From an uncultured Nitrososphaerales archaeon (lineage in GTDB: Archaea > Thermoproteota > Nitrososphaeria > Nitrososphaerales > Nitrososphaeraceae): a stretch of DNA of 64,000 bases. The position numbers and the translations under genes are program-made. The notes under the pieces were generated by a model. It did no database searches, was not told the origin of the DNA, and saw only the letters and a program-made list of their open reading frames with translations. Below, piece after piece: positions 21,448 through 24,125 of the stretch. Numbering within the stretch: position 1 is the stretch's first letter; each line of letters begins with the position of its first letter. The DNA is taken from assembly GCA_963709405.1 (NCBI GenBank), contig CAVPXM010000055.1, forward strand, positions 128,001-192,000, read 5' to 3'.

Positions 21448-22005
21448 ATGATGCTTCCTAGACTAGAATACATCAAGCAACTGAGGACTAGACTGGGAAT
21501 AACGCAGCGGAAGCTCGCCACTCACGCAGGTATTAGTGCATCGATGATTAATCAGATTGAAACCGGAAGATGCAAGCCTAGCTATGAGACCGCGAAAAAA
21601 ATCTTTGAATTCCTAAATTCACTTGAGGGGCAGTCCTCTATGAAAGCCGCTGATATCTGCAGTAGGACATTAATATCCGTTCAGAAAAACGAATCGATCC
21701 ACGCGGCGATTAGCAAGATGAGAGGTCATTCAATAAGCCAGCTTCCCGTCTTTGAGGATGGAATAGTGGTAGGAATATTGAGTGAAGATCGGCTTGCGAA
21801 GACTATTGCTGAAGGTAACAACAAGAACCTTAGTGATATGTCGATTGCCTCTGTTATGGAACCTCCACCGCCGATCGTTGATATATCCACTCCAGCAAAA
21901 GCCTTGATTCCTCTCGTCAGGTTTTCAAAATGCGTATTGGTAAGTGAGACCGGGAATGTAATCGGCGTAATCACCTTAACGGATACACTAAAAATGGTGG
22001 AGTAG
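21448..22005 (+). CDS. HTH (XRE) plus CBS-pair transcriptional regulator
   Basis: LGITQRKLA...IETGRCKPSY; ISQLPV, GVIT. Confidence 0.88.
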   Translation: MMLPRLEYIKQLRTRLGITQRKLATHAGISASMINQIETGRCKPSYETAKKIFEFLNSLEGQSSMKAADICSRTLISVQKNESIHAAISKMRGHSISQLPVFEDGIVVGILSEDRLAKTIAEGNNKNLSDMSIASVMEPPPPIVDISTPAKALIPLVRFSKCVLVSETGNVIGVITLTDTLKMVE

Positions 22006-22007
22006 TG

Positions 22008-22202
22008 TTATTCCTTTGCGTCCTCTAGTCCAATGCAACAGTCCGCACTCTTGATACATTCCGGACATAGGCTCACAGAACAATTCGGCACTAATGACAG
22101 ACCGCATAGGGCACATCTCTTTTTAGCTGCAGTGTCGATCAAGTTGTTATACGCCACGAAAATATATGACGTCGACACTATATAATTCATAATTTTAAAC
22201 AC
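22008..22202 (-). CDS. Possible small Cys-rich protein
   Basis: CALC..C..CPEC..CC; start uncertain. Confidence 0.35.
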   Translation of the reverse strand: MFKIMNYIVSTSYIFVAYNNLIDTAAKKRCALCGLSLVPNCSVSLCPECIKSADCCIGLEDAKE

Positions 22203-22265
22203 ATATCATACTTGGAAATTCGAGGAAAAGCGATGCAATCTTCCGCAAAAAACTTCTTTAACTTA

Positions 22266-23253
22266 AAACCTATCCGAAAACTAGTTGAGTTTTATTGGGT
22301 TATAAGCAAACTGCATTTAATCAATAAAGCTAAGCTGTACTGCACTTTCTTCTGAGTTGTATTGATATCAGGTGCTACTGGAGTTGATTCATCGTACTCC
22401 ATACCTGATATTGTATGGGACAGACAGAATCATTGCATTGCGCTGCTACCGTCACCATCATCAATACATTGGAATAGAAAAAAGACTGGTCGTCCAAGAA
22501 TGAATGACAGGACGGCCATGAATGCTATTTTCTACGTCTTAAGAACTGGATGTCAATGGAAGGCTCTACCAAGAAGTCTTGGTGCTTCAAGTACAGTACA
22601 TGATAGATAGATTCCAAGAGTGGAGGAAAGAAGGTGTATTCAAACGCATGTGGATCGATGGATTGTCAGTATATGATTAAAATAATAGAATAGATTGGAA
22701 ATGGCAGGCTATGGATGGATGGTGTTATTACAAAAGCACCTCTTGGGGGAAAAAGTACAGGACCAAATCCCTACACACAGACAGACAGAAGTAAATCAGG
22801 TACAAAGCGTAGTATATTGGTGGTAGATGGTAAAGGAGTTCCTATTGGTGTATCCGTAGATGGTGCTAACAGACAGACATGATATGAAAATGAGTAAAAC
22901 AACACTTCAGAGTATAGTAGTAATCTATAGACCTGAACCAACAATCAGATCAAAGCAGCACATGTGCCTTGACAAGGGTTATGACTTTCCTGAAGTATAC
23001 GAATTACTAGAAGAAGAGTATGGTTATACAATTCACATCCGATTAAGAGGAGAAGAAAGTAGCAACATAAAAAGAGAAAAATTACCTAAATATAGAGCTA
23101 GACGATGGGTCGTTGAAAGGACTCATTCTTGGATGAACCGGTTTAGACGCTTGTTAATTAGATGGGAGAAAAAGGTAGAGAACCATACTGCGAAGTTACA
23201 TTTTGCTTGTGCTTGGATCACTTACAGAAAAGCAGGAATTTTCGGATAGGTTC
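22266..23253 (+). mobile_element. IS5-family insertion sequence (IS427/IS1031-like), decayed
   Basis: Terminal inverted repeats AAACCTATCCGAAAA (22266-22280) and TTTTCGGATAGGTTC (23239-23253), TTA on both sides, transposase remnants inside. Confidence 0.9.
22362..23249 (+). pseudogene. IS5-family DDE transposase pseudogene
   Basis: GRPR..DR...AIFYVLRTGCQWKALP, LDKGYD, RWVVERTHSW; internal stops (22608 TAG, 22678 TAA) and frameshifts. Confidence 0.9.
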
Positions 23254-23557
23254 TTAGTCAAATTACAACGGTTCACCCTCCATATCTAACATTACTTCTT
23301 TCATGATGTTTCAATCCAGTATTAGTCAAATTATAACATTTTCTCGCATCTCATAGAGTTTAATGTTACTAATTGCGAATCCGGGAGCAACTAAGTTTCA
23401 ATCCTATATTAGTCAAATTACAACCATCAAGGCGAGATGTGTGAACACCGCCTAGTCATTGTTTCAATCCTATATTAGTCAAATTACGACACAACAACAT
23501 ACACACCTACAATCTCAGATGAAGAGTGTTTCAAATCTATATTAGTCAAATTACAAG
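23254..23557 (-). CRISPR. Orphan CRISPR mini-array; repeat GTTGTAATTTGACTAATATAGGATTGAAAC (minus strand)
   Basis: Plus-strand GTTTCAATCCTATATTAGTCAAATTACAAC at 23308-23337, 23395-23424, 23461-23490, 23528-23557, plus a half repeat at 23254-23269; unique spacers of 38, 57, 36 and 37 nt; ATTGAAAC 3' end. Confidence 0.9.
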
Positions 23558-23581
23558 CTCAACTACTTTTCGGATAGGTTC
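23558..23581 (-). mobile_element. Inverted 24-bp copy of the IS left end (solo end)
   Basis: CTCAACTACTTTTCGGATAGGTTC is the reverse complement of 22266-22289 (AAACCTATCCGAAAACTAGTTGAG) with 2 mismatches; followed by TTA. Confidence 0.85.
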
Positions 23582-23986
23582 TTAATGGGCTCGTCTGCTA
23601 TCCTCACACAATTCTACTAAAACCCCGTTCATCGATTTAGGGTGAAAAAATGTGATTCTTCTATCATAAGAGCCCTTTCGGACATCTCCCAACATCCTAA
23701 TCCCATTGCTGCATGCCCTGGAAACGTCCTCCTGTATATTATCGGCAGTAATTGCGAGGTGATGGAGTCCCTCTCCATTTCGGTCAAGGAATTTATTGAT
23801 GGGACTATCTTTAGCAGTAGGTTCCATCAATTCTATTCTAGTATCTTCCAAATTCAGTATAGCAACTTTTACCTTCTCGTTCGGAACATCTTCTATGTGT
23901 ATCTGATTTATTCTAAACAACTTTTCATAGTTCTTCAAAGCTAGCTCTATATTATTAACTGCTATGGCAACATGATCAATCCTCAT
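23582..23986 (-). CDS. mce: Methylmalonyl-CoA epimerase
   Basis: IDHVAIAV, IELMEP, GLHHLA, FFHPKS..GVLVEL; adjacent to mcm. Confidence 0.92.
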   Translation of the reverse strand: MRIDHVAIAVNNIELALKNYEKLFRINQIHIEDVPNEKVKVAILNLEDTRIELMEPTAKDSPINKFLDRNGEGLHHLAITADNIQEDVSRACSNGIRMLGDVRKGSYDRRITFFHPKSMNGVLVELCEDSRRAH

Positions 23987-24125
23987 GGTTTAGTATTAGA
24001 TTGGCTCTACTTATTATTATTAACTTACTTTGAACGATTTCGGCTCTTATCGGTCACATAGGTGTCTAAAGATATTCTAATTTACCAATGAAGCGTATAT
24101 AAGTTGCTATATCGAAACTAAATAA

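What the first reader, a model, noticed from the sequence alone, without database searches (positions are those of the whole stretch)
22263..23584. IS5 composite element carrying an orphan CRISPR mini-array as cargo
Seen in sequence: TTA | IS left end (22266) - transposase - right TIR (23239-23253) | TTA shared with a half CRISPR repeat - 4 spacers and 4 further repeats - inverted 24-bp copy of the IS LEFT end (23558-23581) | TTA. The IS right end cuts the first repeat exactly at its internal TTA, and the missing half (GTTTCAATCCTATA) is not found at the IS left end. The IS therefore appears to have inserted into an array elsewhere. Inference: two inverted IS copies captured an array fragment, the unit moved using the two outer left ends with a TTA duplication, and the second IS was later reduced to its tip. 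This would be a transposon that moves spacers independently of cas genes, none of which occur in these 64 kb.
Basis: partly seen in the sequence, partly recalled or inferred. Interest (0 to 1): 0.85.

Follow-up and report, generated by a model that had tools for sequence, protein, structure and literature searches.

The report
IS5 transposon carrying CRISPR mini-array
A decayed jumping gene in a soil ammonia-oxidising archaeon has picked up a short piece of a CRISPR array and copied it to at least fourteen places in the genome, showing one way that CRISPR arrays can end up far from their cas genes.

Summary
Window 22266-23581 holds a 988-bp IS5-family IS with a broken transposase, then TTA plus the last 13 nt of a 30-nt CRISPR repeat. 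Four spacers and four full repeats follow, then a 24-bp inverted copy of the IS left end. TTA flanks the whole segment.

All 6 congeners lack the segment. The 4 inspected at base level have a single TTA there, the mce stop codon. Contigs from three soil metagenome studies match both outer junctions.

The element is not unique. The genome has no long array with this repeat, but 15 scattered sites with 1-4 repeats. They draw on about seven shared "spacers" in one fixed order. Of these, 11 end in the same 24-bp IS end, and TWA follows in 9 of the 11. All 6 right ends of this IS sublineage join the half repeat.

Related repeats form ordinary arrays in other Nitrososphaeria. This genome has one type I-B effector locus with a related repeat, and no cas1, cas2 or cas4 was found.

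Best reading: a non-autonomous composite transposon with a CRISPR fragment as probably neutral cargo. Expression and function were not shown.

The parts
22263..22265 (.). Left copy of the 3-bp target duplication (TTA)
   Evidence: the congeners inspected have a single TTA at this site.
22266..23253 (+). IS5-family insertion sequence of sublineage 'IS_A', 988 bp, non-autonomous (broken transposase)
   Evidence: 91-98% identical copies on C21, C97, C50, C40 and C30; the ORF fragments hit DUF4096 and DDE_Tnp_1; an intact relative on C58 scores 234.9 bits on NF033580 (IS5 family); frameshifts and a stop.
22266..22289 (+). IS left terminal inverted repeat (outer end of the unit)
22362..22610 (+). 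Transposase fragment 1 (DUF4096 N-terminal domain)
22715..22882 (+). Transposase fragment 2 (region around the first catalytic motif, in another frame)
22860..23249 (+). Transposase fragment 3 (DDE domain C-terminal part)
23239..23253 (+). IS right terminal inverted repeat (now internal to the unit)
   Evidence: all 6 IS_A right ends in the genome are followed by TTA plus the half repeat.
23254..23269 (-). Truncated CRISPR repeat (last 16 nt in plus-strand reading, first 16 nt in the transcribed sense), starting with the junction TTA
23270..23307 (-). Spacer 1 (type S_a, 38 nt), shared with C21, C40 and C63 copies
23308..23337 (-). Repeat 1 (3 mismatches to consensus)
23338..23394 (-). Spacer 2 (57 nt). 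It begins like spacer type S_b and ends like type S_f, and appears to be a fusion after loss of a repeat.
23395..23424 (-). Repeat 2 (consensus GTTTCAATCCTATATTAGTCAAATTACAAC on the plus strand)
   Evidence: weak Rfam CRISPR-DR2 match, 24 bits, below the cut-off of 37.
23425..23460 (-). Spacer 3 (hairpin type S_c; one arm is mutated in this copy)
23461..23490 (-). Repeat 3 (1 mismatch)
23491..23527 (-). Spacer 4 (type S_d, 37 nt), nearly invariant between copies
23528..23557 (-). Repeat 4 (3 mismatches); leader-proximal in the transcribed sense
   Evidence: Orientation inferred.
23558..23581 (-). 24-bp inverted copy of an IS left end ('IRL24'), the second outer end of the unit
   Evidence: 11 copies in the genome, all abutting a repeat; 9 are followed by TWA.
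23582..23584 (.). Right copy of the target duplication (TTA), which is the stop codon of mce on the minus strand

Best explanation
Window 22266-23581 is one copy of a non-autonomous composite transposon of the IS5 family. Its two outer ends are the left inverted repeat of a decayed IS ('IS_A') and a 24-bp inverted copy of an IS left end ('IRL24').

Between the IS and IRL24 lies a fragment of a type I-B-like CRISPR array. It starts with a repeat cut at its internal TTA, which is the kind of site this IS family inserts into. The whole 1316 bp inserted as one piece into the TTA that is the stop codon of mce, and duplicated it.

Shown:
- the anatomy;
- the empty site in congeners;
- both outer junctions in independent metagenome contigs;
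- the multi-copy family with one shared, ordered spacer repertoire;
- the TWA target next to IRL24 at most loci;
- the strict linkage of IS_A right ends to the half repeat.

Inferred:
- an ancestral IS hit a repeat of a genuine array, and the array piece between that IS and IRL24 became cargo;
- transposase is now supplied in trans by related, recently active IS copies ('IS_B', 97-100% identical to each other);
- arrays later shrank by repeat-repeat recombination;
- loss or excision of the IS left 'solo' arrays with one IS end.

The CRISPR part most likely rides along as neutral cargo. Repeats, spacers and IS have diverged to a similar degree. No adaptation genes were found. No target of any spacer was found.
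For: Anatomy.

Empty site with a single TTA. All 6 of 6 congeners lack the unit; 4 of 4 inspected at base level have one TTAATGG.

Junction contigs in 3 studies.

Family: 37 repeat hits in 15 clusters and no long array. Spacers fall into about 7 types, always in the order S_a/S_a' < S_b < S_f < S_e < S_c < S_d < IRL24.

IRL24 is present at 11 of 15 clusters, and TWA follows directly in 9 of those 11.

All 6 of 6 IS_A right ends are preceded by 'gactaa', which is the half repeat.

IS sublineage and adjacent spacer type agree for 5 of the 6 copies. C55w, C40 and C21a are 95-96% alike and carry S_a. C97 and C50 are 98% alike and carry S_a'. C30 also carries S_a' but is equidistant in the IS matrix.

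A second architecture, IRL24-array-half repeat-TAA-IS_B2, on C63 has matching TAA on both sides.

IS5 family membership and the TWA target.

The repeat is genuinely CRISPR. It is 23 of 30 identical to the repeat of the cas6-cas8b array on C46. It is 25 of 30 identical to a repeat forming an array of at least 10 repeats with unique spacers in G017. Related repeats lie beside cas1 in G144 and G193.

Neutral-looking divergence: repeats have 52 mismatches in 37 x 30 nt. S_d has 93% pairwise identity. IS_A copies are 91-98% identical.
Against: No transposition was observed, and no contig with the empty allele was seen in the four runs laid. Mobility is therefore historical inference.

All six IS_A copies have broken or truncated transposase genes. 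Movement needs a helper that I did not test.

Four of 15 clusters lack IRL24. Two of them, C97 and C50, are 98.4% identical to each other yet end exactly at the last repeat with unrelated flanks. C50 also lacks the first ~35 bp of the IS. The two-end model does not explain this.

A metagenome contig (L024) has the same truncated repeat with two different spacers and no IS end nearby. The half repeat may therefore predate the IS junction.

The TSD is only 3 bp and the target is nearly always TAA or TTA, so a matching TSD alone has about a 1 in 2 chance.

Neutrality is judged from small counts. The loop of the hairpin spacer is far more variable than the rest, which a simple neutral-cargo reading does not predict.
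Confidence: 0.7

Rival explanations
1. The mini-arrays are functional. They are transcribed, in the window by read-through from mce, which lies on the same strand as the canonical repeat orientation. The transcripts are cut by the genome's Cas6. The products then either guide the type I-B Cascade-Cas3 of contig C46 against competing mobile elements, or act as repeat decoys (RNA anti-CRISPR) that blunt host interference. On this reading transposition replaces the missing adaptation module as the way guides spread.
For: The genome keeps a type I-B effector set (cas6 fragment, cas8b, cas7, cas5, cas3) but no cas1, cas2 or cas4 was found. The 3' 17 nt of the mini-array repeat, including the ATTGAAA handle, is nearly identical to the cas-linked repeat. 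Spacer lengths of 36-38 nt match the cas-linked array. All 14 clusters with element features (a spacer, an IS end or a half repeat) keep at least one full repeat. Virus-borne mini-arrays and single-repeat decoys are established precedents (PMC11656645, passages read).
Against: The repeat differs from the cas-linked repeat at 7 of 30 positions. Known viral mini-arrays carry repeats identical to the host's (PMC11656645). Repeats are no better conserved than spacers or the decayed IS. No spacer matches anything else in the genome, in 300 other Nitrososphaeria genomes at E<=0.01 beyond repeat hits and a few ~25-40-nt borderline hits at E 0.001-0.009 that I did not examine, or as exact cores in IMG/VR. 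The only sequence upstream of the first repeat inside the element is the 24-bp IS end, so there is no leader or own promoter. The recently active IS_B lineage is array-free.
Confidence: 0.2
2. IS and array did not travel together. An array-plus-IRL24 element, or a native small array, sat at each site first. IS copies were then drawn next to it, because the repeat contains the preferred target GAC-TAA, giving the same junction repeatedly.
For: The IS target preference cTWAg is real, and the repeat contains gacTAA. Two different IS lineages, in opposite orientations, abut the same half repeat. Five arrays with IRL24 have no IS. L024 shows the same half repeat without an IS.
Against: An insertion into a full repeat would leave the other repeat half on the far side of the IS, and it is never there. 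All 6 of 6 IS_A right ends are joined to the half repeat, and no IS_A copy is free of it. IS sublineage and adjacent spacer type co-vary. Congeners have neither IS nor array at the mce site, and the TTA duplication brackets the whole unit.
Confidence: 0.07
3. The pattern is produced by assembly or by rearrangement. Either a single chromosomal array riddled with IS insertions was fragmented by IS-IS recombination, or it was fragmented by metagenome binning and mis-assembly.
For: The genome is a 100-contig assembly, 91% complete with 3.7% contamination. Contig C46 starts with ~900 bp at 60-68% GC joined to 31-39% GC sequence, an apparent chimeric join. IS-rich genomes do rearrange.
Against: Fragmentation would scatter different spacers. 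Here the same spacers recur at up to 12 loci with 2-10% divergence and unique flanks. Both outer junctions of the window copy occur with 0-2 differences in contigs of three studies. The insertion is flanked by a target duplication at a site that is empty in congeners.
Confidence: 0.03

Closest known systems
Composite transposons, 'transporter IS' and mobile insertion cassettes (IS ends mobilising passenger DNA)
   Same: Passenger DNA lies between two inverted IS ends. A target duplication flanks the whole unit and an empty site exists in relatives. The element is non-autonomous and depends on a related transposase. (The class description is recalled knowledge; the anatomy is.)
   Different: One side is only a 24-bp end, not a second IS. 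The cargo is non-coding CRISPR repeats and spacers rather than genes. The IS-cargo junction lies inside a CRISPR repeat.
Mini-CRISPR arrays and single repeat units carried by viruses and proviruses (review PMC11656645, passages read)
   Same: A short array of 1-4 spacers sits on a mobile element without cas genes, in a host that has a matching-type effector.
   Different: The carrier is an IS5-family transposon, not a virus. The repeat is only 23 of 30 identical to the host's cas-linked repeat. No spacer target was found. The same spacers are amplified many times within one genome.
Stand-alone CRISPR arrays on integrative-conjugative elements of Thaumarchaeota (PMC6563490, passages read)
   Same: Same phylum and the same type I-B repeat family. 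The arrays are carried by integrated mobile elements without cas genes.
   Different: Those arrays hold 69-96 spacers and still acquire spacers in trans. Here there are 1-4 fixed spacers, the carrier is an IS, and no adaptation genes were found.
Transposons that target CRISPR arrays or use CRISPR (Tn7-like elements inserting into CRISPR repeats, PMC11837452, listing and abstract start only; CASTs, PMC11656645)
   Same: A transposon end sits inside a CRISPR repeat, so there is a physical link between transposition and CRISPR sequences.
   Different: There is no Tn7 machinery, no tniQ and no cas genes in the element. Insertion follows the ordinary TWA preference of the IS, with no sign of RNA guidance.
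Isolated or orphan CRISPR arrays 'away from cas genes'. The proposed origins (MGE transfer, cas loss, off-target integration) are as summarised in 10.64898/2026.04.27.721218 (passages read); the primary paper is not held and is recalled only.
   Same: Arrays lie far from cas genes and an origin through a mobile element is likely.
   Different: Here the vehicle and the mechanism can be read at base level (IS ends, TSD, empty site), and the array has been copied many times within the genome.

Membership tests
IS5 family insertion sequence | DDE transposase matching the IS5-family profile | tested here: met
   An intact relative on C58 (280 aa) scores 234.9 bits on NF033580 (cut-off 110). It also hits DUF4096 and DDE_Tnp_1. 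The window fragments hit DUF4096, DDE_Tnp_1 and DDE_Tnp_1_2.
IS5 family insertion sequence | Terminal inverted repeats and a short target duplication at a preferred site | tested here: met
   The 15-bp terminal IR has 1 mismatch. There is a 3-bp TAA/TTA duplication at 7 of 7 complete array-free IS_B copies, within a cTWAg context. Assignment to a subgroup (IS427 or IS1031-like) is recalled from ISfinder and was not tested.
IS5 family insertion sequence | Autonomy (intact transposase) | tested here: not met
   The window copy has at least 3 frame changes and an in-frame stop. The other IS_A copies are also broken or truncated.
Composite transposon | Two IS ends in inverted orientation bracketing cargo, with one target duplication around the whole unit | tested here: met
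   IRL at 22266-22289 and inverted IRL24 at 23558-23581, with TTA on both sides. A second example on C63 has TAA/TAA.
Composite transposon | Two complete IS copies | tested here: not met
   Only 24 bp of the second end exist, in all 11 copies that have it.
Composite transposon | Empty site in relatives | tested here: met
   The check on a second copy (C63) was inconclusive because the intergenic DNA is not alignable.
CRISPR array | Regularly spaced direct repeats of 23-47 nt with spacers of similar length | tested here: met
   30-nt repeats with start-to-start spacing of 68, 87, 66 and 67 nt.
CRISPR array | Repeat belongs to a repeat family found in cas-linked arrays | tested here: met
   23 of 30 identical to the C46 cas6-cas8b array repeat. 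25 of 30 identical to the G017 array repeat. Related repeats lie beside cas1 in G144 and G193. The Rfam CRISPR-DR2 match is only 24 bits against a gathering score of 37.
CRISPR array | Adjacent cas genes and a leader | tested here: not met
   There are no cas genes on contig C55. The leader position is occupied by the 24-bp IS end.
CRISPR array | Spacers unique to the locus, recording past acquisitions | tested here: not met
   The same ~7 spacer types recur at up to 12 loci.
MGE-borne mini-array used for inter-element conflict | Repeats identical to the host's cas-linked array | tested here: not met
   7 of 30 positions differ.
MGE-borne mini-array used for inter-element conflict | Spacers match related mobile elements | tested here: inconclusive
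   No matches were found in the own genome. None were found in 300 other class genomes beyond repeat hits and a few borderline ~25-40-nt hits that were not examined. None were found in IMG/VR, though those scans were for exact 22-24-nt cores only. The soil archaeal mobilome is poorly sampled.
CRISPR-associated transposon (CAST) | Tn7-like or Mu-like transposition genes plus a nuclease-deficient CRISPR effector inside the element | tested here: not met
   The element holds only an IS5 DDE pseudogene and the array.
MITE | Short non-coding element with two terminal inverted repeats and a TSD | tested here: not met
   The IS-less 'solo' arrays keep only the IRL24 end. Their other boundary varies: inside the half repeat, inside a spacer or inside a repeat.

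The most novel reading that the evidence does not exclude
The IS-borne mini-arrays are not junk. They would be transposon-spread guide-RNA or decoy cassettes read by a type I-B effector that has lost its adaptation genes. The 24-bp IS end, which sits exactly at the leader-side repeat boundary, would have begun as a CRISPR spacer acquired from the IS itself. On this reading, immunisation against an IS created a new transposon end that then mobilised the array.
Probability: 0.1. Interest if true: 0.9.

Novelty: new variant of a known kind. Interest (0 to 1): 0.62.

Why it matters
Where CRISPR arrays that sit far from cas genes come from is usually argued from indirect evidence. Here the vehicle can be read base by base: IS ends, a target duplication, an empty site in sister species, and at least 14 descendant loci.

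It shows that an ordinary IS, not only viruses, plasmids, ICEs or Tn7-like elements, can pick up and amplify CRISPR repeats and spacers.

It also carries a practical warning. Mini-arrays with identical spacers at many loci can be transposon cargo, not records of infection, and array-based host-virus linking or strain typing would be misled by them.

If the arrays turned out to be expressed and loaded into the adaptation-less type I-B effector, this would be a new route for spreading or jamming CRISPR guides.

In six full-text searches and the passages I read from three papers, I found no description of an IS5-type element carrying a CRISPR array. The primary survey of isolated arrays (Shmakov et al. 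2020, recalled) is not in the library, and supplements were closed, so a prior mention cannot be excluded.

Tried and rejected
- Spacer targets. blastn-short of all 33 extracted spacers against the own genome gave only 14-18-nt chance hits outside the mini-arrays. Exact 22-24-nt cores of four spacer types (S_d, S_a, S_a', S_e), the hairpin pattern and the repeat gave 0 hits in viral contigs. These scans are exact-match only, so diverged protospacers would be missed. Types S_b and S_f were not scanned.

- Source array. The exact 28-nt repeat core gave 0 hits in genome contigs. A degenerate 3' part found only the congener G006. The exact repeat in metagenome contigs found one contig, L024.

- L024 flank as a decayed IS left end. 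The local alignment score was reached by 260 of 5000 random 40-mers of the genome, so this idea was rejected.

- Empty site for a second copy (C63 unit). The congeners lack it, but the intergenic DNA does not align, so there is no base-level answer. The flanks of the solo array on C21 are themselves repeats, so that check was uninformative.

- Expression. Run X18, an RNA library, has contigs over flank, IS and array at similar depth (4-6). The tool warns that DNA can be present, so nothing can be said about transcription. No contig joining 22265 to 23582 (the empty allele) was listed in the four runs. With contigs this is not evidence of absence.

- Spacers of the cas-linked C46 array against the genome. 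The best hit was an 18-nt match (E 0.001), which I did not pursue. The coordinates used were 3 nt out of register.

- Rfam. Only a sub-threshold CRISPR-DR2 hit.

Supplementary files were not consulted.
Full report
**The observation.**
- TTA at 22263-22265.
- A 988-bp element at 22266-23253. Its left end is AAACCTATCCGAAAACTAGTTGAG and its right end is ...TTTTCGGATAGGTTC (15-bp terminal inverted repeat, one mismatch at the tip).
- TTA at 23254-23256, followed directly by GTCAAATTACAAC. Together these are the last 16 nt of a 30-nt repeat, GTTTCAATCCTATATTAGTCAAATTACAAC.
- Four full repeats at 23308, 23395, 23461 and 23528, with 3, 0, 1 and 3 mismatches.
- Spacers of 38, 57, 36 and 37 nt.
- At 23558-23581, an inverted copy of the IS left end. 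One search reports arms of 26 nt, 92% complementary.
- TTA at 23582-23584, which is the stop codon of the minus-strand mce ORF 23582-23986.
- The other half of the cut repeat is not at the IS left flank.

**What the IS is.** The ORF fragments hit DUF4096 and DDE_Tnp_1. A related copy on contig C58 has a single 280-aa ORF scoring 234.9 bits on NCBIfam NF033580, IS5 family transposase, against a cut-off of 110. The window copy needs at least three frame changes and contains an in-frame stop, so it is non-autonomous.

Aligning the ends of all copies in the genome shows a 3-bp duplication, TAA or TTA, usually within cTWAg. The CRISPR repeat contains gac-TAA-t (equivalently a-TTA-gtc), which is a good half-site for this target.

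**Is it an insertion?** All six same-genus genomes have the HTH-CBS gene and mce next to each other without the 1316 bp. At base level, G003, G005, G002 and G001 each carry a single TTAATGG at the site, which is the mce stop. The G003 left flank (…CAAAAACCACCTGATT|TTA) aligns with the window's (…CAAAAAACTTCTTTAAC|TTA). So the whole segment from the IS left end to the 24-bp end lies between the two copies of a duplicated TTA. The target was the mce stop codon, and the duplication preserved it.

Contigs of three soil metagenome runs from three studies match 21900-22296 with 0 differences. They match 23460, 23492 or 23505 to 24000 with 0-2 differences. The outer junctions are therefore not an assembly artefact of this genome, although one of these runs may be its source. 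No contig with the empty allele was listed.

**The main new result: it is a family.** The window's genome (4.83 Mb, 100 contigs, 91% complete, 3.7% contamination) has no long array with this repeat. Instead there are 37 repeat copies (up to 6 mismatches) in 15 clusters of 1-4 repeats on 11 contigs. Printing them side by side and extracting the spacers shows that the 'spacers' are a small shared set, which I labelled S_a, S_a', S_b, S_f, S_e, S_c and S_d. They are 2-10% diverged between loci and always occur in the same relative order, ending in the 24-bp IS end (IRL24). Different loci keep different subsets, as expected from one ancestral array that lost units by recombination between repeats. 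The window's 57-nt second spacer begins like S_b and ends like S_f.

IRL24 directly follows the last repeat at 11 of 15 clusters. The IS target TWA directly follows IRL24 at 9 of those 11. That is what repeated transposase-made junctions would leave.

**Three IS lineages.** The IS copies fall into three lineages.
- IS_A (the window's type) has six copies, 91-98% identical, all broken or truncated.
- IS_B has seven copies, 97-100% identical and array-free, so it was recently active.
- A third type on C63 is 91% identical to IS_B.

All six IS_A right ends in the genome are joined to TTA plus the half repeat, and no IS_A is free of the array.

The IS_A copies that are 95-96% alike (C55 window copy, C40, C21) all carry S_a next to the half repeat. 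The 98% pair C97/C50 carries S_a', as does C30, although C30 is equidistant in the matrix. IS and array have therefore been inherited together.

On C63 and C59 the array is joined through the same half repeat to the left end of the third IS type, in the opposite IS orientation. The C63 unit (IRL24-array-IS) has TAA on both sides. That is a second valid pair of inverted outer ends.

Five loci have the array and IRL24 but no IS. Their IS-side boundary is ragged, lying within the half repeat, a spacer or a repeat. A sixth retains a ~20-bp stump of the IS_A right end. I read these as what remains after the IS was excised or deleted. This is inference.

**Is it really CRISPR?** Yes, by descent. Contig C46 carries a type I-B effector locus:
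- a cas6 C-terminal fragment;
- a five-repeat array;
- cas8b, cas7, cas5;
- cas3 with HD and helicase domains.

The C46 repeat, GTTTAAATCGAACTATTATAGGATTGAAAG, is co-oriented with the cas genes. It is 23 of 30 identical to the reverse complement of the mini-array repeat, GTTGTAATTTGACTAATATAGGATTGAAAC. This sets the canonical transcribed strand of the window's array as the minus strand, the same strand as mce.

A search of 300 other Nitrososphaeria genomes found related repeats in ordinary arrays.
- G017 (same family) has at least 10 repeats, GTTTCAATCCTATATTAGTCAGATTCAAAG (25 of 30 identical), with unique spacers and a degenerate repeat at the end that corresponds to our half-repeat end.
- In G144 and G193 the related arrays lie beside cas1.

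Rfam gives only a sub-threshold CRISPR-DR2 hit. Cas1, Cas2 and Cas4 were not found in the window's genome (the genome is 91% complete). Cas6, Cas3 and Cas7 matched above cut-off only on C46. Among the 40 nearest relatives, only G006 has the repeat, as a two-repeat array with a different spacer. One metagenome contig, L024, has it with two other spacers.

**How it most likely works.**
- Shown: a segment bounded by an IS left end and an inverted 24-bp IS left end, carrying a CRISPR fragment, was inserted with a TTA duplication. Sister copies of the same construct sit at many other TWA sites.
- Inferred: an ancestral IS landed in the TTA of a repeat in a genuine array. The piece of array between that IS and IRL24 then moved as cargo whenever a transposase paired the two outer ends. 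Today the transposase would have to come from the intact, recently active IS_B relatives, whose ends differ at 1-3 of the first 19 positions.

The array itself shows no sign of selection.
- Repeats carry 52 mismatches in 1110 positions.
- S_d copies are 93% identical pairwise.
- IS_A pseudogenes are 91-98% identical.
- No spacer has a match in the genome.
- None has a match in the 300 class genomes, apart from repeat hits and a few borderline ~25-40-nt hits that I did not examine.
- None has an exact-core match in IMG/VR.
- The currently active IS lineage carries no array.

I therefore favour neutral cargo (about 0.7 for the whole reading). I keep 0.2 for a functional role, as guides for the adaptation-less I-B effector or as repeat decoys.

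**What does not fit.**
1. C97 and C50 are 98.4% identical over ~1167 bp, yet both end exactly at the last repeat with unrelated flanks and no IRL24. C50 also lacks the first ~35 bp of the IS. Some process with a breakpoint at the repeat edge is implied, perhaps ectopic recombination with solitary repeats such as the one on C13.
2. L024 has the same truncated repeat without any IS end in 5.6 kb. The truncation may therefore be older than the IS_A junction, or it may be a footprint.
3. IRL24 starts exactly at the leader-side repeat boundary in all 11 copies. A random deletion endpoint would rarely fall there. This keeps alive the idea that it began as, or within, a leader-proximal spacer taken from the IS. 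Against that idea, a 21-nt solo remnant of the same IS end exists without any array at C37:26555 and C96:4381, so short solo ends can arise in other ways.
4. The hairpin spacer S_c (8-bp GC-rich arms) has arms 87-89% identical between copies but a loop only 62% identical, with 12 distinct loops among 13 clustered sequences, one of which is a mis-clustered S_f. Either the ancestral array held several related hairpin spacers, or the loop mutates unusually fast.

**Comparison with what is known.** The element works like a composite transposon or transporter IS, but with a 24-bp second end and non-coding CRISPR cargo. It resembles virus-borne mini-arrays and the ICE-borne stand-alone arrays of Thaumarchaeota in being an array on a mobile element without cas genes (PMC11656645 and PMC6563490, passages read). 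It differs from them in carrier, in having fixed amplified spacers, and in a repeat that is not identical to the host's. It is not a CAST, because it has no Tn7 genes and no effector. It is not a MITE, because the solo forms have one end only.

Six full-text searches returned no paper describing an IS5-type element carrying a CRISPR array. A 2026 preprint (passages read) lists MGE transfer as one proposed origin of isolated arrays without such a case. The primary survey of isolated arrays is not in the library (recalled only), and supplements were closed.

**Verdict.** This is a new variant of known kinds, with solid anatomy but untested function. Interest 0.62. A specialist would find an IS-amplified CRISPR fragment in an ammonia-oxidising archaeon unexpected, and useful as a worked example of how isolated arrays arise. 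The most likely reading, however, is passive cargo in a decaying element family.

Noticed in passing
G000:C46:1-7567 (L020), outside the window: Type I-B effector locus: a cas6 C-terminal fragment, a 5-repeat array lying between cas6 and cas8b, then cas8b, cas7, cas5 and cas3. No cas1, cas2 or cas4 was found anywhere in the 91%-complete genome. The first ~900 bp of the contig are 60-68% GC against 31-39% afterwards, an apparent chimeric join that cuts cas6.
   Followed up: partly
window 23425-23460, and 11 other loci listed: One spacer type is a hairpin with 8-bp GC-rich arms. The arms are 87-89% identical between copies, but the ~13-nt loop is only 62% identical, with 12 distinct loops among 13 sequences. 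Degenerate look-alikes lie at C30:43371 and C63:86053.
   Followed up: partly
G000:C97:2765-3965 and G000:C50:67546-68717: Two IS_A-plus-array copies are 98.4% identical. Both end exactly at the last repeat, with unrelated flanks and no 24-bp IS end. C50 also lacks the first ~35 bp of the IS. The two-end transposition model does not explain this.
   Followed up: partly
L024:1920-2068 (metagenome contig): A mini-array has the identical repeat and the same truncated 16-nt terminal repeat, but two different spacers, and no IS end within the 5.6-kb contig. A more degenerate repeat-like stretch lies just upstream (about 1870-1895).
   Followed up: partly
G000:C37:26555-26576 and G000:C96:4381-4402: A solo 21-nt remnant of the same IS left-end variant, preceded by TTA, lies next to a peptidase-like gene with no CRISPR repeat. 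The two loci are 96% identical over 1.5 kb.
   Followed up: no
whole genome G000: 169 matches (up to 2 mismatches) to the 14-nt IS end motif. At least four IS5-type sublineages with related ends are visible, nearly all next to TWA. There are also ~440-bp elements bounded by two such ends, with TAA on both sides (C37:45881-46318, C65:8912-9349), which look like MITEs.
   Followed up: no
G000 IS_B copies, e.g. C25:61400-62340 and C58:12587-13527: Seven array-free IS copies are 97-100% identical, suggesting a recent burst. Most need one frame change at an A-run (GGGGAAAAAAG) between the DUF4096 and DDE parts, which may be programmed frameshifting. The C58 copy reads through as one 280-aa ORF.
   Followed up: partly
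window 23582-23584: The insertion target was the stop codon of mce (methylmalonyl-CoA epimerase-like ORF). The duplication keeps the stop. The array's canonical strand is the mce strand, so read-through from mce would transcribe the array in the crRNA sense.
   Followed up: no
L001:1500-1600 (G006:C190): The only congener with this repeat has a two-repeat mini-array with an unrelated spacer. The first repeat has three changed bases at its start.
   Followed up: no
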